NCBI RefSeq assembly: GCF_964355755.1
Contig: NC_092675.1
Coordinates: forward strand, 24,710,912-24,774,911
Direction: 5' to 3'
Length of the DNA: 64,000 nt
From: Antedon mediterranea
Lineage: Eukaryota; Animalia; Echinodermata
Part shown: piece by piece, positions 8,358 through 63,059 of the stretch
Numbering within the stretch: position 1 is the first letter of the stretch
How the letters are laid out: the number at the start of each line of letters is the position of its first letter
Position numbers and translations under genes: made by a program
Notes under the pieces: generated by a model
Told to the model about the DNA's origin: nothing
Seen by the model: the letters and a program-made list of their open reading frames with translations, nothing else
The model's database searches: none

Positions 8358-8477
8358 ACGTACGGCCATACTGCGTTGAAACACCGGTTCTCGTCAGATC
8401 ACCAAAGTTAAGCAATGTTGGGCCCGGTTGCGTTCTGGATGGGAGACCGTCTAGAAATCGCAGTGGGTGCTGTATAT
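8358..8477 (+). pseudogene. 5S rRNA-derived sequence (pseudogene / SINE head)
   Basis: tacggccatac...caccggttctcgtc.gatcacc.aagttaagcaa...ggatgggagaccg...gggtgctgta follows the metazoan 5S consensus with many substitutions. Confidence 0.88.
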
Positions 8478-8478
8478 A

Positions 8479-8796
8479 CTGGAGAGTATTGGTAATATCG
8501 GACTAGCATGTGATAGGCATGGGTTCGAGGTTATCTGTACCATACTAATTGCATCCTTAGGCAAGATGCTTTACTCTCATTGCCTCGTCCTTCGGATGGG
8601 ATGTAAAGCCGTTGGTCCCGTGTACTTAACAGTGCACTTTAAAGAACTTGGTACACTATTTGAAAAGAGTAGGGGTGCTGATCTGGTAGGCGCTGCACTG
8701 GTGGCTGCCGTGGGTCCGTAGAGGGCCTAATCCGAATCTCCTTAGTTTCCAGTTAAGCTTGAGGACTATTAAAGATAATTACCTTTACCTTACCTT
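8479..8796 (+). mobile_element. tRNA-head Deu/Nin-domain SINE
   Basis: B box ggttcgag. Core gtccttcggatgggatgtaaagccg...taaagaac..gtacactatttgaaaagagtagggg resembles the Deu domain. (ttacct)n tail; paralog at 45320. Confidence 0.8.
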
Positions 8797-23700: not shown

Positions 23701-26700
23701 AAAGCTGTTGAACCTTTCTTTTCTCGTTTAAAAGTTCATTTTAAAAATAATTAACATGTTTTAGTCTGCTATACTACAACGTGTATAAAGTGCAAGGATT
23801 TTTTATTTTAGTACGCCCTATCCCCACCCAAAAATGTAAAAAGAAATGGTGTTTGGGCTAATAGTTAATTTACAACATAGCTATACGCGTAGGCTACGTA
23901 ATTAACATTGTCTAGTCAGATTACACTATGTTTATACAATATAATGTGTGAGGAGATGTGTATGTGGATTTAAGGCAAGTGGACCTAATGGATCATGCCA
24001 GAAAGTGTTTAAAAAAGTATATTCACTCTTTAAGGGCGTTTGGAGTTAATATACATTATCAAAAGGCTGAAAATAATGACAATACTGTTGGTAACAGTGC
24101 CTCGATCTAAATGGAGATACAAAATAAGCAAACAACTAAATCAAAACGATAGAGTGTTTTGATATATTTATATAAATATTATTATTTTAATTTAAGATAA
24201 TAGTTATATTCCATTCATAAAACATCTTCTGTATCATATACATCTTATAAAAATATATTGCAAATTACCAATTTATTCGCACACCTCGAGTATGATTATT
24301 AAAAAGGAAATCATGCGTATTTTACCGTAAAATCTAATTAGATTCATCTAAATTAACATTTTTATTCTGACATCATCAGGAATAATCACATATATCTCTC
24401 CACGATTTTCGTTTATACATTATTTATTATAAATTTGTTAATTATATAAAATAGTTGGTTATACTTGGTGGTTTGAAATTACTCTGATGACCTATGACAT
24501 ATTCAACTCCAGAATAAGCTGATTGATTATGTTATCATTACTTGCTAGCTACGATCTTACTTATTAACTTTTTAACGTAATGGTTGCCTTATTTTTGTTA
24601 ACATTCAACTTATGAATTATGCATTTAGCTGCTGGCTATATCGACGCTAGATTGATTATTGATGACTGATAGCCAAAGTAATGATGAAGCACAAGTAATA
24701 TCATGTATACAAATATACACGTCGTACAATATTATACTATACATACTATACTAATGCAAAATGTTAGTACAGATAAACTTATAGTGTCAAATACGTAAAC
24801 GACATTCGTTGTTAGTAATGATCAGTTCATGATGTCAGGATGTACCCCGAAGAGAAGCGGGTTTAAAATGCTGGTTAACAATACTTTACTTGGCTGTTAC
24901 GATATTGCTTTACTATTTTAGTTCCGGGTTGCGTAAACTTTTTCGAAGGCTTTTATAAGAAAATCCGAGAGATTGCAAGTTAACTGATAGTACATAGCTT
25001 TCGGGTGTGGTACAGTTTCCCAATGCTTCCGTCCTCTTGAAGATAACTGCCTAAAGACGCGGCGCAAAAAAACACAATAAAGTTGATGGGTTTCGAACCA
25101 AGGGATCCAAAAAGCTGTAGGCCTAAACCCATTCAGACAAAGATCTGGCTTTCAGAAAACTGTTGATATTAAAAAAGAAATAATAGAAATTTGATTCCAG
25201 GATCTACCCTTTAAGTCATTTTCCATCGTAACGCCCTGATAAGTAGTCAACCAAGCATTACAAGCCAAGAAAATGTATTCTCCTCCTATAATATCTTTGG
25301 CATGACGTCGTTCATTGGAATTGTCTGAACTTGCTAATTGTATCAATTATGCAGTGTTATTTGTTTAAAGTTCTTGATAAAAAATTAATTAAGGCACATG
25401 CCAGTACAGTAGAATGTGTACAATTATGTAGTATTATGTGATGTTTAGAGTTGAAATAAAATACATTAAAGCAGTACTATGGCAAGCAATTCTAGAATAT
25501 CAATATTGCTGGTTCTAAATTAAATGTTTTACAAAAAATGTCTTAGTTGCAATATAATCAGAGCAGCTGGTAGTTCAAGGAGGTATATAGATCGATTTCA
25601 CACCAAAGAAAAGAATAATAACTTAAAATAATAAATATTAATTTTGTTCATAATTAAAAATCAATATTCACCTGCTCAAATAGGAATCTATAATTATAAG
25701 AAAACAGACCTTAATAATTGTATGTTATTGGACCAAACTCTTAAGCCTAGTAATTGTGGGATTTTGAGTGAATTATTTTGTTTGTAAGTAATTTAGGAAA
25801 TAATAGTTTTAGAAAGCTATTTTCGCTACATTAGTTCAGTTCAATCTAGTTCAATTTGCACACTTCTTCTTCTTAAGAAGATTATTTATATATTCATAAA
25901 ACTAATAATACCATAATCTACATTTATTTCGAATTTGTATTAATCGTGCCATGAATGTTTGGTTTCATTTTACTTACATAACATGGACTAAATATATCTT
26001 TTCTATTGTTGTTGAAGTAGAAGTCATCATTATAATTTACATGATTCAATCTGGTATTTATAGTGTATGTTCTCAAAAATGTATCAGAATTTCAATTTAC
26101 ATGTTATTATCAAATTTTCAGTAATCAAAAATTCGTTTTAGATAGGAATTAAAGTTATTTTCTTGCCTTAACTTCGTATAATGAGTATTCATTTTCGTGG
26201 ATCTTCTTAAAAAATCCTGAATTCAATTACAACTTTAGTGGAAAAGTGAGTAATTTTTGTTGAAAGGGTTCATATTTTTAATTTTAGTAATCTTAAATAG
26301 AAATATTAAACCTTTAAATGTCACAATGATTAGGTCTTTGAAAGAATTGGTAGGCAATATTCGAGAATATTTAATTTTAATGGAGAAACAACAAGCAGGG
26401 CGACGTGCATGTCAAAAGATTAGTAGAATAATTGAATTTACTTTAAAAATTAAAAGGATAAATAGATCTATTTAAAGTATACTGTAATGCATTTCTCTTT
26501 ATATGAATATTTTCCATATCCATGTATTGGAAGAAAAATACTTGTTATATCTTTACGCAAGTTTGTAATTGCATGCAATACCATTAAATGCGTGAGGACT
26601 GAATTGTATTTATTTTGTGACTTTTTATATTATTATGGTATGGTAATTACTTCAACTAAACTAAGAAGATAGACGTCAATATAATAAATATTACCAGACC

Positions 26701-29575: not shown

Positions 29576-29955
29576 CAGTTACATCACCCTTCTACGTATC
29601 TAGTTACATCACCCTTCTACGTGTCCAGTTACATCACCCTTCTACGTGTCCAGTTACATCACCCTTCTACGTGTCCAGTTACATCACCCTTCTACGTGTC
29701 CAGTTACATCACCCTTCTACGTGTCCAGTTACATCACCCTTCTACGTGTCCAGTTACATCACCCTTCTACGTGTCCAGTTACATCACCTTTCTACGTGTC
29801 CAGTTACATCACCTTTCTACGTGTCCAGTTACATCACCCTTCTACGTGTCCAGTTACATCACCCTTCTACGTGTCCAGTTACATCACCCTTCTACGTGTC
29901 CAGTTACATCACCCTTCTACGTGTCCAGTTACATCACCCTTCTACGTGTCCAGTT
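29576..29955. repeat. 25-bp minisatellite x15 (cagttacatcacccttctacgtgtc)
   Basis: Near-identical head-to-tail units with no spacers. Confidence 0.95.
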
Positions 29956-34113: not shown

Positions 34114-34278
34114 CTTGCACTGATGAAGGGCTAGTGTTGCCCGAAAGCTCTGCTAACTTTTCTGGCTGTTTACTTTATCGTTTTGATTTAGCTTTTCGCT
34201 TTTAATTTTTGTATCTCCATTGAGATCCAGCCACTGATACCCACAGCATTGTCATTTGTTTCTGTAATTTGCCTTTGG

Positions 34279-34282
<4 letters not shown>
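34114..34282 (+). mobile_element. Hammerhead-bearing ~170-bp repeat (probable Penelope pLTR 3' end); paralog at 41124-41290
   Basis: Near-identical to 41124-41290. Both end ...gcctttggatt followed by (TA)n. Confidence 0.75.
34117..34153 (+). ncRNA. Minimal type I hammerhead ribozyme variant (second copy)
   Basis: GCA-CUGAUGA-A-GGGC(UAGUGUU)GCCC-GAA-AGCU-C^UGC. Differs from the 41127 copy only in loop II. Confidence 0.75.
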
Positions 34283-39122: not shown

Positions 39123-39852
<730 letters not shown>

Positions 39853-39872
39853 GAAGTAAAAACTACAGTTTG

Positions 39873-39921
39873 GTCTCTACAGGCTTGTTTCGTGAGTCGT
39901 GCAACTCACTCATCAGGAGAC
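39873..39921 (-). ncRNA. Type I hammerhead ribozyme (Penelope pLTR)
   Basis: Reverse complement: GUCUC-CUGAUGA-GUGAGU(UGCACG)ACUCAC-GAA-ACA(AGCC)UGU-A^GAGAC. Intact core and all three stems. Confidence 0.9.
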
Positions 39922-40006
39922 TATAATGAGAAGAATCAATTACAACGTTGCTTATAAGAACATTTACTTGTAGAATTAGCATTTACAGGTGATATGTTTT
40001 GGAATG

Positions 40007-40981
40007 TCAGCTGTTATGTAACAATGCTTTCTTTCTGTGCCGGCAGGCGGACACAAGTTCGTTACGTTTGTTTAATGTCGATAATTCAGGGTGGCGGATG
40101 ATAAATAATTTCTCTTTGAGGCAGAGGTTGCATTTTTTGTTTGCGCTACTATATGCTTTAGTAGATGCCAAGATGCGCCATGAGATTGAATAGTCTGTGT
40201 TGTTGTCCTTGAGTGTCCAAATATGTTTACTGAGTTCGGTTGAGTTTCTAGAACGTGTATTACGGAATGATGAGGTATGATTTCTGTATCGTGTTTTAAA
40301 ATCATTTTCAGTGAGTCCGATATAAGTTTCTGAGGTGGATTTGTCTTTGCGTGTAACTGTGGCTTGGTATATTACAGATGATTGTAAGCAATTTCCGTTT
40401 AGCGGGCATGTGTTTTTCTGTCGGCAGTTGCATGTTTTGTTTTCTTGCGTGTTTTCCACGGATGTTGTTTCGGGCTGGTTGAGTATTCTCTTGTTGTGAC
40501 TGTCTATTATCTGTTTCATATTGTTCATACAACTGTAGCTAATCTTGATGGTGTTTCGGTTGAAGATTTTTCTTAGTTTGTTATCTTTTGGAAAATGCTT
40601 GTCTACTCGGGATAGGAATTTCTGTCCAATGTTTGTGCTGACGTTTTTGCTGAACGGTGGGTTGTACCACAGAATGTCGTTTCGTTGTCTGTTTTTTCGT
40701 CTTGTCTGGGTTACCGGCTCGTATTTTAGTGTGTACTGGTATCCACTGTCGTTGAGAGTTTTCTGGTATACAGGGCCGGCTTGGTTGAATGAATTCTTGT
40801 CGGATGACAAGGACGAGAGTCGTTTGTTTATTCCGGCGGGTATATTCTTTAGGATGGTCGGTGGGTGGTTACTTTGTTGATGGATATACTGTAACGTGGC
40901 GTTTGGTTTGGTGTAGGGCTGGTATGTGTTCTTCGCTAGGTTGAGTGTGACGTCTAAGAAGTTGATGACTTGTTTGTTTGC
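40007..40981 (-). pseudogene. Truncated Penelope ORF (RT C-terminus + GIY-YIG endonuclease)
   Basis: The 267-aa ORF-track entry extends upstream without a stop to the truncation point at the TA run. Confidence 0.85.
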
Positions 40982-41032
40982 TTATATGGTATATATTATA
41001 TATATATATTTATATATATATATATATCCAAT

Positions 41033-41077
41033 CTGCAGACAGTACTGTTTCGATCTTATTAGATCTCGTCAGTGCAG
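41033..41077 (-). ncRNA. Type I hammerhead ribozyme
   Basis: Reverse complement: CUGCA-CUGACGA-GAUCU(AAUA)AGAUC-GAA-ACAGUACUGU-C^UGCAG. Intact core, palindromic stem III. Confidence 0.9.
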
Positions 41078-41126
41078 CTTAGGTTTCGAAATGAAATGTA
41101 CCGCAGAACTGGCACAATATAGGCTT

Positions 41127-41163
41127 GCACTGATGAAGGGCTATTGTTGCCCGAAAGCTCTGC
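41127..41163 (+). ncRNA. Minimal type I hammerhead ribozyme variant (dimer type)
   Basis: GCA-CUGAUGA-A-GGGC(UAUUGUU)GCCC-GAA-AGCU-C^UGC. Palindromic AGCU replaces stem III. Confidence 0.75.
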
Positions 41164-43952
41164 TAACTTTTCTGGCTGTTTTACTTCTCGTTTTGATTTA
41201 GCTTTTCGCTTTTATTTTGTATCTTCATTGAGATCCAGCCACTGATACCCACAGCATTGTCATTTTTTCAGTAATTTGCCTTTGGATTTATATATAGGAA
41301 AATTTATATATATATAAGTATATATATATATTGTCCAAAAAATGACAAGTATTATGTAAAAAAAAATTGAATATACAGTAAAGAGATAGAGTAGGCCTAA
41401 TTGAAAACAAGGCAGAAAGCAATGATGATAACAGACAATAGGTGATAAGTCTCACCCATATACAAGACAAGGAACGAAATATGATTAAACGTATTTCCAT
41501 TCAGAATCAATGTTTCTCTTGTTTGCCTGTATGTGTATGACTATTATTTCCATGAATGTCTCAGTATACAAGCTGAACAGACAGACAAAGCAGAAATATA
41601 ACTCATATAAGAGCCTACTAAATTGCGCTATGTTGGCCGAATTATTTTCAAAGAACTTTTAAAGGTCTGGCGAAGTAAGAGGAAATGACGAACGATCAAT
41701 CATGGCTAATTTAACATGATGCATACGTTTGCACTCATTTATTTAATGATGAAAACCTGTCTCATAAGGTGCATGCATTTATATTTGTTTATATTGCATA
41801 GCATTATTTAAACACCATGTCGTCAAAATGACATCATTATGACTTCCGTTTCGAGAATCGTAAACGTTTTAAATTTTCGAAGAAAATTATGCAGACTGAG
41901 CGGGAGACTGAGTAACTTTTGTGTAATTTTCGTGTTCGCGTAATGAGACATGAAATCCAGTGAAATCTGGAGGATGAGTAACTTTCGCGAGCAACTCGCG
42001 TCTGCGTTAAAAGTTTGTAATTGTTCAAAACTGTAGGCCATTTCAACATCTTCAAAAGTAGCGAAGAGGTACATCTCTCGATCTCTTGAATTAGGCCTAC
42101 CTCCTTTGTAATATTATGACTTTTAACTGTAGTATTATTCTCTGGGCCAAATATCTAAATTAGTAATTGTTTGCCTTTAAACGGTCATTTTTCGGCAAGT
42201 TAATTCTAAGTAGGTTAGGCTGCAGAGAGGCCGAACACACCAGCAGGTAAGTTCCACTAATATTTGGCTATATAATATAAAAAATATACTGTAGCCTTTT
42301 ATATCGGTGAAATATAACATTTGACATTCCCTTGGAAATTATATTTTTCTCTCGGGATTATATTTTCCCTCAGCTTCGCTTAAAAAAAAATATAGCCTTT
42401 TCTTTCGGAAATCAAAAGTTAATTCACCTCTAAGCAGGCAATATGTTGTATAATAATATTGAAATCTCAATTTCACGTAATATAATTTTTTTTTGAAAGA
42501 ATCAATTCAAACAAAATATCTGGAATATCTTTGATCTTTGTTTGAATATTCATGTAATCAGCATAAAGTAGCGATAAAGTGGAATGTTAAATATGAATTA
42601 TTAAAATGTATTATTTTGTAATAAAAAACGAGCATTTATTTTATTTTGTGATAAAAAATTATACAAAATACTGTTTAAATGCGACAAAAACAATAGTATC
42701 CATGGGTATGTTATCTGGATCATGATACTATTTATCACCATTTCAACAATTATAAAATTGCCTAATTACTAACTGCGGTTATAATATCATACAGCAGGTA
42801 TAGTTATTTCTCATGTGAATATCTTCAGCTGTTATTTAATCTAATCAGTATTAAGTGAAATATCTTGGTAATTAGTATTTGCCAAATAGAAGATAGTATG
42901 AGTGTTTACTTCCAATATCATACAACATACAAGCATGATCTCAACAGTATTTTATTTCAGCTGTTTTTGCAACTTCAATACTATTAACTATAGTATCATT
43001 ATGTGTCTACTTTAAGGGCTCAAAGTAACTTTAAGTCCACTAATCATATGTAATAACTTAATTCTTCATTAATATTGGTCGCTCAGGTAAACGAGATTCC
43101 AGTTTTTACATTGGTTGTTCAGGTTTCCAAAATGTACTATTGTGGTTGTATACGGGCAATCCACTCGTTGTAGATGCGGAATTGCTAATTAAGACGAATA
43201 ATCTAATCCATATAGTTAATGGAAAACTATATGCGTATAGACAAAAAGCTTTCAGATTTAAGTAAAGCATGATAGTTACCTGTCAGAATATATATAAACA
43301 ATTTCCGTTGTGCTGTGATGAATTGTGTTCAGAGGGAGATATCTATCGGAAAAACAAAATACACGCCCATGATTTAAATATATCCTATATCGTTGGCTAT
43401 AGTCACCAAAATGGTGTTTAACATTATTATTTTGTGATTGTTTTACTACGTGGATTTAGACCAAATTTTAAACGGACACATTACATCTTATTGAATTGGG
43501 CTGATAGTAACTACATGAAAAAAGCTATACCCAGTTTGAATCATTACATGTGTTTAAGCAAAGATTAGTGCCGCTACACTCTATTTAACACTGCTCCCGC
43601 TAGGAAATCTAACGGCTAAGGGGAAAAGTTAAACAATATTTAATACTATTTAATAAGCACATTACTAGACTAGATTAAACTTACTTTGACTAGATTAGGC
43701 AATTTAAGTCCTGTTTTATTGATTTTTAAAATAGTAACAATTGTTACTATTTTACTCGTATTAGTTTAAATTATTTTGAATAAATATTGTGTATTCCGAT
43801 CTGATTATAATTATTGTGTGTAATTATTGTAGGACAATATATTATTAGAGATATATTAGCAATATGATTTGTTTTTAATTTGTAAACTTTCCATTTGTTC
43901 GGACTGTTCACCTGAATGGCGTCCAAGTTATTTACATTGAACCAAACATAAG

Positions 43953-44025: not shown

Positions 44026-45319
44026 CTTTTTCTAACTTTCACGGATATTCTTCACCGTCTAGTTTTCTTAGATAATGTCTAAAGGTAATCGTATGTTGCA
44101 ATCATTAGCATTCAATTATAATGGATTCTCTATATGTTGATAAACATCAATTACTTGAAAGCTTTTTGCCTCGAATATTCTTAATTGTGCTTTATAAAGC
44201 CGCCTTCAACGTTTTCGCATAATACGTTACGAACACTTAATTGTGTATACTGTCACTACCTATACTGTGTCATTATCATTTTTACGTTTCTACATTTATA
44301 GAAAATCACGTTTTTTGTTGAAAATAGGCTTAAAAACGTGATTAGGATGTTGGACATTTGATGATATTCTTCCATTCGACAAGTGTTATTGGTTCGAAAC
44401 AACTGGAAACACCGTTTCTATTTTATAGATGTCTGTAATGAAATAGATTACGTTTACAGTAAAACAAACCATCACTTCAGTTTACAATAGGCCTCCTACT
44501 GCTCGTCGAGCGAGTTTTTGGAAACTTATTTACAATAATGATTCCATTCCCTGATAAAATACAATATCTATTCACCATCTAACCCTTAAGCCTTTTGTAA
44601 ATTCCAGACATTAGTGGGAGTGTGTAAACATCAATTAATATGTATGCGAAGCATAATTATATTTAATTTAAAAGTAGAGTTGTAGTGATGATGTCATGTC
44701 ACTGTTGCTAGAATTGCTAGAATCAAGATTCATTAATCCGTTTAATGGGTTTGTGGTGTGATAGTCGGCTTCTTTGAGAACTAAAGCACGTAAGACTTAA
44801 TGCTTTAAGCATCGATAATAATGATTGTATTGTTTTCTTCATCAACATCAAATTGGTTATAAGAACTGAGATTTACACCACAAAACAAGCTGAATATTAA
44901 AGTGTGACGCCATATTTCAATAAGTTTCCACAGACAAAATTGGTTTCAGCAGTGCAGAAAATCATTTCGTTATTACAAAACCTTGTTTATAATCACAGCA
45001 AATATTAAAAGGTAAGGAGGTCGCTACTAAAATTTATCATATAGCAAAACTCACGTAGGCCTACTCCAGGCAATGAATACAGGCCATCATGATAGGACAC
45101 TCCTTTCAATTTCTCTTTCTGGCAACACTTTTGTGGAAATAGGATGTCTAGAAAACTAAGACTTAAAATATTTTTGTTTTCTATATCTAGAAAATCAAGA
45201 TATCTTAGGTCTTAGTCACTCGTGGAAATAACCGTCTCGGATCAATTTGTTTACGTGCACACATTTGGAAAAAAAAATTATTTTACGATGATACTGTTCT
45301 TAACCAGCAATAGCAATTT

Positions 45320-45658
45320 ACTGGTGTAAGGGTAATATCGGACTAGCATGTGATAGACATGGGTTTGAGGTTATCTGTACCATACTAATTGCATCCTTAG
45401 GCAAGATGCTTTACGCTCATTGCCTCGTCGGATGGGATGTAAAGCCGTTGGTCCCGTGTACTTAACAGTGCACGTTAAAGAACTTGGTACACTATTCGAA
45501 AAGAGTAGGGATCGTCTCCCGGTGTTCTGATCTGGTAGGCGCTGCACTTCTGGCTGCCGTGGGTCCGTGGAGGGCGTAATCCGAATTTCCTCAGTTTTCC
45601 AATTAAACTTGAGGACCAGTAATAATACATTTAACACATTTAACATTTAACACATTTT
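45320..45658 (+). mobile_element. tRNA-head Deu/Nin-domain SINE (second copy, no 5S part)
   Basis: Highly similar to 8479-8770. A-box-like tggtgtaaggg; (acattta)n tail. Confidence 0.8.
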
Positions 45659-50796: not shown

Positions 50797-51897
50797 GGGT
50801 CAGTCTAATTACCGAAAACAACCGAAAATAACCGAAAACAACCGAAAACAACCATAAACAACCGAAAACAACCGTAAACAACCGAAAACAAACCGAAAAC
50901 AAACCGAAAACAAAATTTAAAAAATCTAAATACCGAAAACAAATTTTGTATAATATTTTTTTTAATGTCGCCCTCTATTGATGGGTGTTTCTAAAGCTAA
51001 GACCATACACAGAGGCGCAAAAATCATGGAAGACCCTACGAAATGGTAGTGTGCACAAAATACAACTAAAAATCGTACAAATTCAATGAAATACACCGTA
51101 GACTACATTTACTTACAAAATCTATAAACACATTTCGTTTTTAGTCTTTTCAAAAACAAAGCATGATTTTACCTAACTTTGCGTTTTCGTCCCCGGTTTC
51201 GTCACTTAAGTGAATACTGAAGCGATTAAGGATAGTATACTTTATAGTCCCTAGTATCTTTGTATAATTTATCTTTGAAAATCTATAATTAAATTGATCA
51301 TGATTAACCATAGTCAATTTACTTTCTATACTATGGATTAACATATTCATAATTATTGTCAAGTCAAGTCAAGTCAAGTATCATTTATTATCATTTGTTT
51401 TAGGAAAAACATAGAAATTCTGTTTGCTCTGTTGGCGGAGCACAATATCCAACGGACACAACACGAACTCAAAAACAAGGAGTAATGCGCTGGTTTCTGG
51501 ATCAAAAATCGAAAGACTAAAATTAAAATATTTTTATAGATTCTGTAAGTAAATGCGATGTTATCAATTGATTGATTGTACGATTTTTAGTTGTATTTTG
51601 TGCACACTGTCATCGTAGGGTCTTCCTTGGCTTTTGCGCGCGCGGTTTTTTGTCTCTGTTATGGTCTTAGATTTAGAAACACCCATCAATAGAGGGCGAC
51701 ATTAAAAAAATATTATACAAATTTGTTTTCGGTATTTAGATTATTTTATGTTGTTTTAGGTTTGTTTTCGGTTCGTTTTCGGTTGTTTATGGTTGTTTTT
51801 GGTTGTTTATGGTTGTTTTCGGTTGTTTGTGGTTGTTTTCGGTTGTTTATGGTTGTTTTCGGTTATTTTCGGTTGTTTTCGGTAATTAGACTGACCG
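50797..51897. mobile_element. Foldback-type DNA element with ~350-bp TIRs and subterminal (accgaaaaca)n arrays
   Basis: ggtcagtctaattaccgaaaa... mirrored by ...ttttcggtaattagactgacc. 10-bp repeat arrays at both ends. Confidence 0.85.
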
Positions 51898-54372: not shown

Positions 54373-54554
54373 GTAAGTAGCTTTTATTATGCGAATAAAT
54401 ATATCAATATTTTAGGGCTAAATTCGCAACCACTGATGAAACCTTTAATCTATTCCTTTTGTTAGATTGCCTTTTTATGGAAATAGTGACATTTTTCTGA
54501 TCGAATTTTATTCCACTTACTATTGCTTGACAAACTTATATTTCTGTTTAATAG

Positions 54555-54931
54555 CTTGAAAACGGTGCCGTTTATGGTACCAATGTCAACGCCAAGGGAC
54601 CGCAGCCAGACACCTGCAGTTTCTCCAGGATTTACCCAAATTTCAAAGGACCTCTCACCAGAAAACACTGCTGCGTTATCTCGTGAGCGTCGTCTGTCCG
54701 TTCCTGGACCTGAACGCTATAACAATAACGATAGACGGCCGTCTTTCACGGAAAGACGACCTTCTTATACAGAGCAACGTTTACCACTTTACGATGATTT
54801 TGACTCTAGAAGAAGTAGTACTGGATCAATAATAAGTGCATGTAGTGATACGACAGATGGCAGTTCGCCACCACTACACTCACCAGCTCGACGTCTCTCT
54901 TACGTCGGATGTGACGTAACTTCTCCATTAG
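54555..54931 (+). CDS. SYT15: Synaptotagmin-15-like, linker exon
   Basis: LKTVPFMVP...RRLSYVGCDVTSPL open frame; phase 2 to phase 1 is consistent with the neighbouring exons. Confidence 0.8.
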
Positions 54932-57900
54932 GTAAGAAAATATAATATTACAATCAGTAACAGGTAGAGGATGAAAATAATTGTTGTATAATTGTGAATA
55001 CCCAAAGATACAAAATATAATAAGCATGACCACTTCTTTTACTGGTTAAATTTGATTAATTGCCTAATTTATCTTCCTACCCTATGAATTTAAATTATTA
55101 TTTAAATATTATGATAAAATAAAGAGATTCACATTATGATTTATCTCTGTTCGCCTCATGCTAAATAATTATATAAAATTAATTTTGTACGAGAATCGAT
55201 AGAGATCTTTTGGTAATCCTAGCCTTAATGAGGAACAACACTCAATAAACGTATTTCTATTCAAGGATACTAGCCTCTAACGGTATCATTGATTTTAATT
55301 ATTTATACATTTATAAACGTAAAGAATGTGTGGATTCTACCAAACTAATTGTAATATTTATACAGTGCTGGAAAAGTATTGTAATAATTAAATTCGCCAT
55401 AAAAAATAGCTTCAATAAAAAATACTAATCGCATAATATTATTAATGTTTGTTGATAGTTGCCACACAGTATTACGTAACTTGTAATTATCCTACACTCT
55501 CTTATACCATCAACCGTATGCCTTTTTTCCAGAAATGTCAATTTCAGTACCGGGGAGGGTCATGCGAACATTAGTGCTATCATTTAACATTGTTATTTAT
55601 ACATATTTGTGTGTATATACGTACTCCTCCCTCTCCCCATATTAGTTTGCTAACATTCTTGATCGGCTTCTGTTTTACCACGGTTTATATTAAAGCTTCT
55701 TATTCCTTTTAGTTTTGTTGCAAATTAATTTAATGTACTATTACTTTACATAATACATGGCTATGCATACTATAGTACTGTAATACATCATCGTATTATT
55801 GCCTGATAGACGAAAAGGTGATGTCATCCATACATTACGTACAGAAGATGAAATAAAAATAGCATGTTGAACATATTAAACGTAAATCCAAATTTCACTT
55901 TGAAATTTAACCAGCGGACGGCTTTAGTGAGCACTACAGTTTATGACACGGACGTCGGATTTAATTCTGTTTTTGGTTTGATGAATATTAACTGAAAGAT
56001 GCCCATAGGTATCGGTTTGCTTTGCAATAATACGCACGTACGAAAAACTCTGTTTGAAAATCAATCATTGAATAGCTATTGAAAATATTTTCTGCCTTAC
56101 TGTATTTATAATATGGCTGATTATTCAGCAGTGGCCTAGCAGAATTAATAAAACAAAACAAATCTAAAATACGATACGATAAAACTTAATTGTAAAAATA
56201 CAAATCAAATTGAGGTTTAACAAAAAGGAGACAAGAACAGATATAACAAACAAATGTTATTAAAAAAATACCATTATTTTTCAATATTTAATTGATAATA
56301 TAACAATTCACCTGATGTACGATTGTGTTTAAGCAAGAAGGAGTGAAATTCGCTTGTTCCTGGTTTATTAAGACAAATTAAACTACAAGAAAGAGTCTTT
56401 AATAATAATGTCGATTTTTAATTATCTGGCACGGTGTTCTATAGCCTAATGAAATTCCAAAACAGAATTGATTTAATTTTAATTGACGTCAATGGCGATT
56501 TATGAGGGACTGTTTTAATGACCGACTTATAATTTAGAAGGAAATTGCTCAGTGCAGGATTCTTCTGAAATTAATTAATTCCCCAAATTATATAAATAAT
56601 GCAGCATAAAATGAATGTATGGTAGGATTCATATTGACTACAATCTTCGTTTTATATAATACCGCAATCATTAGTGCAATTAGACAATTCGAATTCAAGA
56701 ATTTTTTCATGAAAACTTTACATTAAACCTATGATATAATATGATGATGTTGATGATGATGTTGACGATGACGATGAGAAACTCATAACCGCATAGCAAA
56801 AATGTGCAATAAATATAAAAACGAAAAATATGAAATGTTTCCTTATAAATATTAAACATCTTTATGTTCTCCGATGAATAAACCTAATCTTCAGAGATGC
56901 ACTATTTAACTTATTGTCCCATTATGTCTCATACTAATGCTATTGTACCACTTATAACGCATGTATAACTATGAAAATCACATTAACACGTTTGTCGTAT
57001 TGTTAGTACGTGGTGAAGAAATTATTGTGCAATCAAATTTAATTGGATATCATTCCAAATTTAAAATTAATAATGAAAGCTTGATGAGCAATTTGAAAGG
57101 TCATAATTGCTTAGTATTTTCATTCTATTCCCTGAGTAGTCTTCTCAAAATGCATCATTACTGCAGAAGACAACCAATTACATAACCTAAAATATTCGCA
57201 TTCATTATTAGCCGTTTTAAATAGAATCTTTCATATTTTCGAATTATACGACGGCGTGATTTTAAATGATGTGTTTGCCGACGGTGATGTGAGGATACTA
57301 AGAAAACACTCATGAAACTACTGACCCGTCGTCTCATTAGTCGGCTCATCAGCATACGTTGTATTAATAAAATCAAAGCGTTGTCAAATGGAGTCTGTAG
57401 ATTTGTTCATTCGGAGCTTTTTCAGTCTGCATAATATTTCTGTAGAAACTTATCAAGATAACCATCAATCGATATTTGCGTTTCAATAGTTTGCTAGTTC
57501 ATATTACGAATACCATCGGTAACGTAATTGAAAATCTGCATCGCTTTGGAGATTTACTAAATGTTTTGGATATACGCGAGCACATTGTGAATTTATCTGT
57601 AACATTTCTGTGCTTGATAAAACACCTGCAGAATGTATGCAAGCTCGGGTAAGAACAGATCTGGACATTTGGCTTGATTCTTATAATCTACCTACTACGT
57701 TTGTATTACTTTAATGTTTTAAAAATCAATAAATTCACTATTTGAATATCGTGTACATGTATAATTTAGGCTTACGCAGTTATGTATAAATGCATATTTC
57801 ATTGTAATCTACGAATTGTACATAATATTTCCTAATATTAGCTTTTGTTTTCTTTTAGGCCTAATGTTGCCTTTTTTTAATTGTGGTCATTTTGTGTTAT

Positions 57901-58232
57901 TATTACGTACTAAAATGTAGGTCTATCAATGTAATATACCTTGATGTTTACCCAAGATATAATTGTGTGTCTTCTTAGGCATGTTTTGATTTCAATATTT
58001 CTGTCATAAATACATTGTATTTATTCGGCATATTCGAATTGTACAAAAAAATGCAAAGAATTATTTTCTGGTTGTTTTGTTTAGATGTATTTTATTAGAT
58101 AATTGGTTTTCTTTTTAATCCATAGATGAAACAAAATGTCATCATACATCATTTTCTAATGATTTATTGCGTCATTTGCTTTTTTGTTCAAATACCACAA
58201 ATCTTTATTTCTCTTTTTACTTACATATTAAG

Positions 58233-58534
58233 GAGCGTACGTTGGAGAAATAAATCCAGAGTTATATAAACTAGACCCAGACGAAGATGAAGCTAATTTT
58301 CCAGATGACCATATTGGTAGAATTTGGTTTGCAGTCGAATATGAACTTGAGGCGGAACGTCTCGTTGTCTCTCTAATAAAAGCAAAGAATTTGCCGAGTA
58401 GAGTTCATGGCAGTTCGAGCCAATGTGACCCCCTTGTAAAAATGTTTCTTTTACCAGAGGAAAGACGTCATTTACAGTCAAAAGTAAAAAGGAAAACAAC
58501 AAATCCTAAATTTGACGAAAGCTTTGTCTTTCAG
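58233..58534 (+). CDS. SYT15: Synaptotagmin-15-like, C2A exon
   Basis: GRIWFAVEYELEAERLVVSLIKAKNL...CDPLVKMFLLPEERRHLQSKVKRKTTNPKFDESFVFQ closely resembles SYT15 C2A. Confidence 0.92.
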
Positions 58535-59457
58535 GTAGTGATTTTAATGTTACTTAGAAAGTGTTCAACATTAAAACAATTGCATGTTATCTTCAAATCA
58601 TTCAATACATACTCCCATTCAAAAGAAAGCAAATAAAAGCAACATTGACAATTTAATAATGAAAGAATAAGGGAAACCACAACAATCCGAGGTGCCCTAA
58701 AATAAAATAGTAACAGTATTTCAAGTCAATGGAGGTGAGTTTGATATTATACGAATTCCAGGCTGCTAGGCCCACATTAGGTAGTCCACCACAAGCCTAT
58801 ATAAATCGGAATATGCTAGCAATTATTTCCCCTTACCAGCAGGACGATTTAAACGTAGCTTAGACAAGGATATTTGCTATTACAAATCTAATCATGGTTA
58901 TCTCCAATCATTCAATACAAGGATTCTCCCTAATAAGGTTACCACATTAATAAGCGTGAACAAATTAAACGTTTAATGTTTTATGAAGACATGCTTTATA
59001 AAAGGATTACATTTGTTAGTAGGAACATGAATCTTTAATGAGAATCCAATCAGCACAATAACTAACTGAGCCAAATCCAAATACTAATAGTGGGATGAAA
59101 TTAAAATTCGACTGAAGATGATTCAACAATAGTTGTAAACCTTTTATTAACAACTTCCTTTATTTACAAATTATTAGTAGGCCTACTCTCTAGGATATAA
59201 ACCTGCAATCATTGTAATTTTGCAACAACAAATTTATCATTACGATAGTATTTTAAAAATGGGACATAACATACATTCTTTTTTATAGTATTATTAACTA
59301 CATATTGACAAATGACAAAATAAACATCTTTAAACAAAAATATTAGTAGGACATGAGACCTACATAATTAAGAAAATCATTAGTAATGTCAACGTGTGGG
59401 AAATGCTCATGCTCTACACCACCTTTGGTTTACTAATAATACTATTATTATTTGAAG

Positions 59458-62370: not shown

Positions 62371-62504
62371 TATGCGCCTGGACGATCGAGTTCAACCAAA
62401 GTTGTGTCGTATTGTATGTAGCAAGCGTCTTCGTATAACCATTTTAGCCTCATTGAGTGTCAGAAATTTAATATACTCGACAGTGCACCAAAAGAAAACA
62501 TTAA

Positions 62505-62709
62505 TATACAGAGCACAGTAACAGCCACTAACATGTGCCGCTAAAGTACGTTACATAAACCTTAAGACCCATTTATAGAGCACAGTAACAGCCACTAACA
62601 TGTGCCGCTAAAGTACGTTCCATAAACCTTAAGACCCATTTATACAGAGCACAGTAACAGCCACTAACATGTGCCGCTAAAGTACGTTCCATAAACCTTA
62701 AGACCCATT
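62505..62709. repeat. ~68-bp tandem repeat x3 in the SYT15 3' region
   Basis: tatacagagcacagtaacagccactaacatgtgccgctaaagtacgtt.cataaaccttaagacccatt x3. Confidence 0.92.
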
Positions 62710-63059
62710 TACACTAGGAAGATAACATACATAATTATTTCATACTTAAAACGAAATAAAAAGAAATCTAACATGTTTTCGTCTCATAGGATAACCATCA
62801 ATGCTTCCTTTGATGAAAATGATATTTTCACACGTCCAATCATGATTGATAAAAGCAATAATATCGTGACAACAATACAACGATTTTATTGTTTTTACAA
62901 AATTATGTAATTTGATTGGGTTTAAAACAAAGACAGCATAAATGATTATCCTATAGTCCTAAAAGGAAAACATTTCTAATTTCTTTTGTTCGAAATGTAA
63001 GAAATATGCATGCTTATCTATGTATCGCCGATCGTTATCGTCCAAGTGTAAATGGGCCT
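62701..63059. mobile_element. PIF/Harbinger-like MITE with TTA TSD downstream of the SYT15 stop
   Basis: 26-bp TIRs agacccatttacactaggaagataac / gttatcgtccaagtgtaaatgggcct; TTA on both sides. Confidence 0.8.

What the first reader, a model, noticed from the sequence alone, without database searches (positions are those of the whole stretch)
41026..41290. ~260-nt (TA)n-flanked cassette with hammerhead ribozymes in both polarities
Seen: a canonical minus-strand hammerhead (41033-41077, cleavage 41038/41037) and a minimal plus-strand hammerhead (41127-41163, cleavage after 41160) sit about 50 nt apart and point outward. The unit has tcca...tgga ends with TA runs on both sides and no credible ORF. 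Known: hammerheads in both polarities characterise Avsunviroidae and viroid-like circular RNAs, whereas animal Penelope pLTRs and non-LTR retrozymes typically carry same-sense hammerheads. Inference: either an ambisense retrozyme / retroviroid-like unit mobilised by Penelope RT, or a head-to-head fusion of two unrelated pLTR ends in a TA hotspot. The fusion reading gains some support because the 34114 copy has only the plus half.
Basis: partly seen in the sequence, partly recalled or inferred. Interest (0 to 1): 0.85.

Follow-up and report, generated by a model that had tools for sequence, protein, structure and literature searches.

The report
One-off back-to-back Penelope hammerhead stubs
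The two opposite-strand self-cutting RNA motifs belong to two unrelated, abundant repeat families whose ends meet at one single-copy join, likely stitched together during a Penelope-type jumping-gene insertion, so this is most likely ordinary transposon debris and not a viroid-like element.

Summary
Both hammerhead motifs are present at the stated coordinates (4 descriptor hits in the window, 0 of 400 shuffles). They do not travel together. The minus half (41027-41125) and plus half (41124-41288) are unalignable. Each is a separate multi-copy family with its own upstream sequence in public contigs. The join appears in one contig at single-copy depth in 1 of 4 samples examined, possibly the source sample. 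The halves overlap by 2 nt there. The plus family also makes same-family inverted joins. A truncated Hydra-type Penelope-like element (PLE) abuts the left TA run. With one ribozyme per strand no monomer can be excised, and in a read-through RNA each core is predicted locked by the other's antisense. Opposite-strand minimal hammerheads near truncated PLEs are in print (PMC4209133). This scan noted eight same-family fold-backs in other genomes. What differs here is that the arms come from two families. RNA and cleavage are untested. Verdict: a one-off head-to-head fusion, low interest.

The parts
41027..41125 (-). 5'-truncated copy of a multi-copy family ('minus family') with a canonical type I hammerhead; its end lies 11 nt past the cut site, at a TA run
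   Evidence: its own depth block; contigs continue past 41121-41125 into other sequence; no second copy in the window
41033..41077 (-). canonical type I hammerhead motif, predicted cut 41038/41037; palindromic stem III suited to dimer folding
41124..41125 (.). junction: 2-nt overlap shared by both families (microhomology), single copy
   Evidence: X1 record 1 runs 41096-41153 at depth 259.6; one X1 contig follows the minus family through 41125 and then leaves; plus-family copies begin matching at 41124
41124..41288 (+). near-complete copy of a very abundant short family ('plus family') led by a minimal hammerhead and ending at (TA)n
   Evidence: 92% to the 34114 copy; 72 X1 and 60 X5 contigs leave the window at 41124 into heterogeneous flanks
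41127..41163 (+). minimal PLE-type hammerhead motif with an extra A at 9/10.1, predicted cut after 41160
   Evidence: same core in unrelated locus L001 with a different, still paired stem I
40993..41026 (.). left imperfect (TA)n run, shared with the 5' end of the neighbouring PLE
41289..41331 (.). right imperfect (TA)n run
39777..40990 (-). context: 5'-truncated Hydra-type Penelope-like element (end of RT, linker, GIY-YIG-like domain, ORF 40007-40981; own hammerhead with core start at 39916 and cut site at 39878; tail to a long TA run). Its pLTR is unrelated to either half.
34114..34281 (+). second, solo copy of the plus family, with non-TA sequence upstream and (TA)n downstream

Best explanation
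The cassette is a single-copy head-to-head join of two unrelated, abundant hammerhead-bearing repeat families, likely made in one Penelope-type insertion in which the two ends of a cut TA tract each primed reverse transcription on a different RNA. Shown: two separate families, one junction at single-copy depth, a 2-nt overlap at the join, both 3' ends facing out into TA, and a Hydra-type PLE next door. Inferred steps: (1) a PLE endonuclease/RT nicks both strands of a (TA)n tract; (2) one 3' end copies the plus-family RNA and the other the minus-family RNA, both through their hammerhead cut sites, so the templates were uncut or re-ligated; (3) the two cDNAs stop and anneal through the 2-nt microhomology. 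The product is predicted to be inert. It has one ribozyme per strand, so no unit-length RNA can be excised, and a read-through transcript would pair each catalytic core with the antisense of the other. Together with the sequential-insertion rival, the reading 'one-off fusion, not a mobile unit' carries about 0.92; the 0.5 here is for the one-event route.
For: The halves are unalignable: score 20 against 17.3+-3.0, with 60 of 300 shuffles as good. Summed contig depth forms two blocks in X1, X2 and X5 with a trough at 41116-41124. At 2-nt resolution it falls to 12,602 at 41122-41123 between 119k and 247k in X1; the listed 41117-41151 pieces that reach into those bases carry 3-4 mismatches, which I read as plus copies with TA-like flanks. 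Only 1 of the 32 listed pieces (of 273 laid) crosses the join: X1 record 1, 56 of 56 letters, depth 259.6, against 266-297 for the 8 X1 contigs listed. None is listed for X2, X5 or X8. In X8 the depth over 41092-41115 is exactly the sum of two contigs (5,667 and 6,333), and neither crosses. Minus-family contigs continue into other sequence after 41121-41125 (2 in X1; 2 in X13). The plus family makes a same-family inverted join at the same base (41124/41217, opposite strands, one X1 contig). There is no TA between the halves, and the missing upstream part of the minus family is not in the window (0 matches). A purified PLE protein cleaves and extends both strands, is predicted to be a dimer and uses uncleaved RNA (PMC11167929). 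Head-to-head inverted 5'-truncated copies are typical of PLEs (PMC8557442, PMC3846280). Forming the ribozyme stems costs 10.1 (plus) and 9.3 (minus) kcal/mol in the whole cassette, against 1.9 and 4.6 in the separate halves.
Against: One locus cannot separate a one-event route from sequential insertion. Random placement alone predicts 0.02-0.6 such neighbours per genome under assumed copy numbers, and TA targeting would raise that. Published inverted PLE joins are same-family and were explained by self-priming (PMC3846280). Neither half was linked to an autonomous PLE ORF. The bridging contig has only about 28 letters on each side, short of the tool's 31-letter rule, although a 31-mer assembly cannot give more at a unique join between two repeats. 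X1 may be the window's source, so it is not independent. The tool filters some records, so absence in X2, X5 and X8 is not proof.
Confidence: 0.5

Rival explanations
1. Sequential insertion into a TA hotspot. A minus-family copy landed first. Later a plus-family copy inserted in the TA tract beside it and joined its 5' end to the older copy by 2-nt microhomology, deleting what lay between. The result is equally inert.
For: Three unrelated hammerhead-bearing families sit within 1.5 kb around TA runs. The solo 34114 copy also has non-TA sequence at its 5' side. Chance adjacency is not negligible (0.02-0.6 per genome before TA clustering). Microhomology 5' joins without a TSD are described for PLEs (PMC3846280).
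Against: It needs a clean loss of the intervening TA and of the minus copy's upstream part (absent from the window). The geometry matches the family's own inverted joins.
Confidence: 0.42
2. An ambisense retrozyme or retroviroid-like unit: the 265-nt cassette is copied as a whole from a circular RNA with hammerheads in both polarities.
For: Both motifs are intact. The ends form a 6-bp inverted match, and the unit folds somewhat better than shuffles (z -2.1 and -2.6). The cores pair with each other's antisense, as in viroid rods (recalled). The RNA side is untested.
Against: The junction is single-copy and seen in 1 of 4 samples, while each half is present tens to thousands of times without the other. 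There is no tandem array and only one ribozyme per strand. As a circle only 53-56% of bases pair (-0.22 to -0.23 kcal/mol per nt). Forbidding the cross-core helix costs 7 of the roughly 10 kcal/mol advantage over shuffles, and any two opposed hammerheads with this stem I would form that helix. The right-hand tgga end is native to the plus family (34114 copy).
Confidence: 0.04
3. Assembly chimera: two repeats were mis-joined by the assembler.
For: Both sides are high-copy repeats in a TA-rich region.
Against: The join exists as an exact 58-nt contig at depth 260 in an independently assembled read set (X1).
Confidence: 0.02

Closest known systems
Endonuclease-positive PLE insertions with an inverted 5'-truncated copy at the 5' end (Adineta vaga Pen2/Pen2a, PMC3846280; general layout in PMC8557442 Fig. 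2)
   Same: Head-to-head arms, 3' ends outward, short overlap or microhomology at the join, (TA)n target without a discernible TSD.
   Different: Published arms are copies of one family and form a palindrome. Here the arms are unalignable, so a self-priming fold-back cannot have made the join.
Minimal hammerheads of metazoan PLEs, including opposite-strand pairs 100-700 bp apart in Schistosoma mansoni (Cervera and de la Pena 2014, PMC4209133)
   Same: The plus motif has the listed traits: an extra nucleotide at 9/10.1, the G10.1-C11.1 pair, a palindromic 15.2-16.2 and a short helix I. It occurs mostly as dispersed single copies, and opposite-strand pairs are reported.
   Different: Stem II is 4 bp rather than the 7-8 bp described for S. 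mansoni. The pair here combines a minimal and a canonical hammerhead 49 nt apart.
Non-LTR retrozymes of animals (PMC7229834; bioRxiv 10.64898/2026.07.22.740005)
   Same: Non-coding, low GC, type I hammerhead. The minus motif is of the canonical kind these elements carry, so the minus family may be one.
   Different: Retrozymes are same-sense tandem repeats. No tandem is seen at this locus, and the monomer of the minus family is unknown.
Avsunviroidae, viroid-like ambisense circular RNAs and the carnation retroviroid-like element (features recalled; PMC7761336 passages seen)
   Same: Hammerheads on both strands within about 250 nt; the cores pair with each other's antisense.
   Different: The linked unit does not recur, there is no multimer, pairing is low, both motifs are type I PLE-style, and each half is a host repeat family in its own right.
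Hydra clade of PLEs (PMC8557442, section 11)
   Same: The neighbouring ORF has CxCx5C, CxxC and CxH, no cysteine pair between the GIY and YIG positions, a hammerhead and TA flanks. It is a plausible type of mobiliser.
   Different: Its pLTR does not align with either half (37 and 85 of 300 shuffles as good), so it is not shown to be their partner.

Membership tests
Ambisense viroid-like / retroviroid-like unit | Hammerhead motifs in both polarities within one short sequence | tested here: met
   (sequence only; cleavage not tested)
Ambisense viroid-like / retroviroid-like unit | The two ribozymes recur linked as one unit | tested here: not met
   one bridging contig at single-copy depth in X1; none listed in X2, X5, X8; halves abundant apart
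Ambisense viroid-like / retroviroid-like unit | Longer-than-unit head-to-tail DNA, so that two same-sense ribozymes flank a monomer | tested here: not met
   one motif per strand at the locus; no second minus-family copy in 64 kb
Ambisense viroid-like / retroviroid-like unit | Compact, highly paired circular fold in both polarities | tested here: inconclusive
   53-56% paired, z about -2; no viroid control was folded, so the comparison with viroids is recalled
Ambisense viroid-like / retroviroid-like unit | Circular RNA of both polarities in cells | not testable with these tools
   one search listed no holder on record as RNA; only contigs were served
Non-LTR retrozyme | Type I hammerhead, no ORF | tested here: met
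Non-LTR retrozyme | Two or more tandem same-sense units, each with a hammerhead | tested here: not met
   Not at this locus. One X1 contig shows two plus-family copies in tandem with 32 nt between. The minus family's layout elsewhere is unknown.
PLE inverted (head-to-head) insertion | 5'-truncated arms joined head to head with 3' ends outward in an AT-rich or (TA)n target | tested here: met
PLE inverted (head-to-head) insertion | Both arms from the same family (inverted repeat) | tested here: not met
   halves unalignable; hence a variant that works like this layout, not a strict member
PLE inverted (head-to-head) insertion | Arms are pLTR ends of an RT/GIY-YIG-encoding element | tested here: inconclusive
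   No genome held. The plus motif has PLE min-HHR traits. Neither half aligns with the neighbour's pLTR.
Metazoan PLE minimal hammerhead (plus motif) | Extra nt at 9/10.1, G10.1-C11.1 pair, palindromic 15.2-16.2, short helix I | tested here: met
   against PMC4209133
Hydra clade PLE (neighbour 39777-40990) | CxCx5C linker, CxxC and CxH motifs, no CCHH in the EN, hammerhead, (TA)n target | tested here: met
   Atlas neighbours carry PF26215 (33-84% of members) and GIY-YIG (47% in one cluster); Pfam itself gave no relevant hit
Hydra clade PLE (neighbour 39777-40990) | RWK and DKT motifs, RT phylogeny | not testable with these tools
   The copy is truncated within the RT

The most novel reading that the evidence does not exclude
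The fused locus, though single-copy, is transcribed and gives a circular RNA with working hammerheads in both polarities. It would be a newborn ambisense viroid-like RNA assembled from the ends of two Penelope-type families in an animal genome, a snapshot of how such replicons could arise. A milder novel reading (about 0.5 likely, interest about 0.35) is that the join records two different RNAs being reverse-transcribed at one break, which self-priming models of PLE inversion cannot produce.
Probability: 0.03. Interest if true: 0.85.

Novelty: new member of a known kind. Interest (0 to 1): 0.16.

Why it matters
As it stands it matters little. It shows how hammerheads in both polarities arise in animal DNA by accident, which is a caution for screens that call viroid-like elements from ambisense ribozymes alone. 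The one useful point is mechanistic. A head-to-head join between two different families cannot come from fold-back self-priming, so counting such joins genome-wide would test whether PLEs insert by priming two RNAs at one break, an open step in their mechanism (PMC11167929, PMC8557442). If an ambisense circle were found, it would be a direct bridge from PLE ends to viroid-like RNAs.

Tried and rejected
No whole genome is held, so the genome-wide BLAST was replaced by laying public contigs. I used 5 of the 20 listed runs (X1, X2, X5, X8, X13), 4 of them at junction resolution. No RNA holder was listed; X2 is only guessed to be RNA, so nothing is concluded on expression. Pattern scans found 1 unrelated locus in metagenome contigs (L001, no BLASTN hit to the window), 0 in viral contigs and 0 in prokaryote genomes. 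My first descriptor missed the plus motif because it mishandled a 2-nt palindromic stem III; it was corrected. Pfam gave only three sub-threshold, irrelevant hits for the neighbouring ORF. The tcca/tgga ends were considered as terminal inverted repeats of a MITE-like unit and rejected, because the right end is native to solo plus copies. An ORF starting in the plus hammerhead was rejected: 98% of family depth in X1 has G at 41144, which makes a stop codon. An origin of either half from the neighbour's pLTR was rejected. A simple insertion of the plus copy into a minus copy with the remainder kept on the right was rejected. Summed depths are not copy numbers; only single-contig depth ratios were used for that. 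Literature searches. Their listings showed no report of a linked ambisense hammerhead unit in animal genomic DNA and no two-family PLE inversion, but the library lacks most subscription papers and I read no supplements. The search of earlier findings by sequence found nothing.

Full report
Observation. The minus motif is a canonical type I hammerhead (41077-41033, C17 at 41038). It matches Rfam HH9 at 33.3 bits, E 4.5e-6, under the gathering score of 52. The plus motif (41127-41163, C17 at 41160) is not seen by Rfam and does not fold better than shuffles on its own (z -0.11). It does have the traits that Cervera and de la Pena list for minimal PLE hammerheads: an extra nucleotide between 9 and 10.1, the G10.1-C11.1 pair and a palindromic 15.2-16.2 (PMC4209133). 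A descriptor allowing these traits finds 4 sites in the window and none in 400 shuffles. An unrelated metagenome contig, L001, has the same core and stem II with a wholly different but paired stem I, which supports the fold. There is no ORF above 36 aa. Cleavage itself is untested.

Are the halves one unit? No genome is held, so I searched public runs. 20 hold the stretch or part of it, 8 of them at half the words or more, in organisms coded A and B. Laying the 265 nt on four runs placed 10,992 (X1), 1,882 (X2), 4,128 (X5) and 12 (X13) contigs. Depth falls into two blocks, a lower one over 41026-41115 and a much higher one over 41125-41290. 72 X1 and 60 X5 contigs leave the window at 41124 into mixed flanks (agreement about 0.5). 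From this I infer that the plus family's usual start lies only some 5-10 nt upstream, so this copy is nearly complete. Two X13 contigs follow the minus half to 41121 and continue into other sequence. The halves do not align with each other (60 of 300 shuffles score as well) or with the neighbouring element's pLTR (37 and 85 of 300).

The junction. I then laid the 60 nt around the join on X1, X2, X5 and X8 (273 contigs laid, the 32 longest or joint-bearing shown). One piece crosses it: X1 record 1, 58 nt, 56 of 56 letters identical, depth 259.6. The 8 X1 contigs listed have depths of 266-297, so this is about one copy. For the other three runs the longest listed pieces are 35-36 nt and none crosses. 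In X8 the depth over the minus side is exactly two contigs of 5,667 and 6,333, about 33 times the 170-183 of its 310-342-nt contigs, and both stop by 41121. The bridging contig starts with the first 31-mer that reaches 41126 and ends with the last that starts at 41123. One X1 contig follows the minus family through 41125 before leaving. So 41124-41125 belongs to both families, a 2-nt microhomology. Caveats: the piece has about 28 letters a side, under the tool's 31-letter rule; X1 may be the window's source; and the tool filters some records, so absence in three samples is not proof.

Setting. Left of the cassette, across a 34-nt TA run, lies a 5'-truncated element on the minus strand. It has an ORF at 40007-40981 and its own hammerhead and tail ending at a long TA run. 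Pfam does not name the ORF. Atlas neighbours score 0.95-0.97 and carry PF26215 and, in one cluster, GIY-YIG. It has the CxCx5C, CxxC and CxH motifs given for the Hydra clade, which inserts into (TA)n and occurs in echinoderms (PMC8557442 section 11). The locus is therefore a TA hotspot hit by three hammerhead-bearing families. An unchecked note of this scan calls the genome a likely feather star.

How it likely arose. Head-to-head inverted 5'-truncated copies are a usual PLE layout (PMC8557442, PMC3846280). The plus family shows one such same-family join at the very same base (41124/41217). A purified PLE protein cleaves AT-rich DNA, extends both strands, is predicted to be a dimer and uses uncleaved RNA (PMC11167929). 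The simplest single event is that the two ends of a cut TA tract primed on two different RNAs and the cDNAs met at the 2-nt overlap. Both halves span their own cut sites, which fits uncut or re-ligated templates. The alternative is two insertions in turn with loss of the DNA between them. Random placement predicts 0.02-0.6 such neighbours per genome for 30-400 assumed minus copies, and more with TA targeting. I put these at 0.50 and 0.42; one locus cannot decide between them. Both mechanisms are inferred.

What it would do. Probably nothing. Each strand has one ribozyme, so no monomer can be cut out. Both have palindromic stem III inserts of the kind that work as dimers, and a single S. mansoni minimal motif did not cleave in vitro (PMC4209133). 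In a transcript of the whole cassette each core is predicted to pair with the antisense of the other (pairing probability 0.9-1.0 for the plus core). Forming the ribozyme stems then costs 10.1 and 9.3 kcal/mol, against 1.9 and 4.6 in the separate halves. That helix supplies 7 of the roughly 10 kcal/mol by which the cassette beats shuffles. As a circle only 53-56% of bases pair.

Comparison and novelty. It works like a PLE inverted insertion but fails strict membership, because the arms are from two families. It is not a non-LTR retrozyme at this locus (no tandem), although the minus family may be one elsewhere. It fails the viroid-like tests that DNA can address. Opposite-strand minimal hammerheads 100-700 bp apart were reported in 2014 as probable truncated PLEs (PMC4209133). 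Eight earlier notes of this scan describe same-family fold-backs in other genomes (unchecked, not used as support). I found no paper on a two-family inversion in four searches, which is weak evidence of absence. One point is unexplained: both halves share the same four bases before the core and end in the same four bases before TA, which may hint at a distant common origin or a shared mobiliser. Whether the minus family normally ends there was not tested.

Papers, what I saw. PMC4209133: parts 1-2 of 4 of the text. PMC11167929: parts 1-2 of 4. bioRxiv 10.64898/2026.07.22.740005: parts 1-2 of 5. PMC3846280: passages and the Discussion. PMC8557442: passages and section 11. PMC7229834 and PMC7761336: passages. 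No supplements were read; those of PMC8557442 and PMC4209133 list hammerhead families and might hold relatives of these two.

Verdict. Interest 0.16.

Noticed in passing
window 39777-40990 (-): 5'-truncated Hydra-type Penelope-like element with an open 324-aa frame, its own hammerhead (7-bp stem II, cut site at 39878) and TA runs on both sides.
   Followed up: yes
window 39123-39855: 377-bp tandem duplication (95%) made of the last ~80 nt of that element's tail, a long TA run and the flank beyond it; a local duplication or an assembly effect.
   Followed up: no
window 8358-8772 and 45316-45622: A 5S rRNA match (64.4 bits) runs straight into a ~300-nt sequence that recurs at 87% without a 5S hit at 45316; possibly a 5S-headed SINE.
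   Followed up: partly
window 24064-24151 (-): Decayed 3' fragment of the plus family without the hammerhead (about 85%).
   Followed up: partly
L001 1490-1535: The same minimal hammerhead core and stem II as the plus motif in an unrelated contig, with a fully changed but paired stem I, downstream of a 361-aa frame.
   Followed up: partly
run X1, window 41290 to 41124: One contig holds two plus-family copies in tandem with 32 nt between, a retrozyme-like arrangement; another holds a same-family inverted join (41124/41217).
   Followed up: no
window 41027-41032, 41073-41076, 41126-41129, 41282-41287: The two otherwise unalignable families share the four bases before the hammerhead core and the last four bases before the TA run; unexplained.
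   Followed up: partly
window 29576-29955; 50798-51149 with 51512-51896; 62504-62714: A 50-bp tandem array, an 80% inverted repeat pair and a ~68-bp tandem array.
   Followed up: no
window 54490-54945 and 58232-58636 (+): Open frames that look like exons; the second resembles a synaptotagmin-type C2 domain (recalled, not tested).
   Followed up: no
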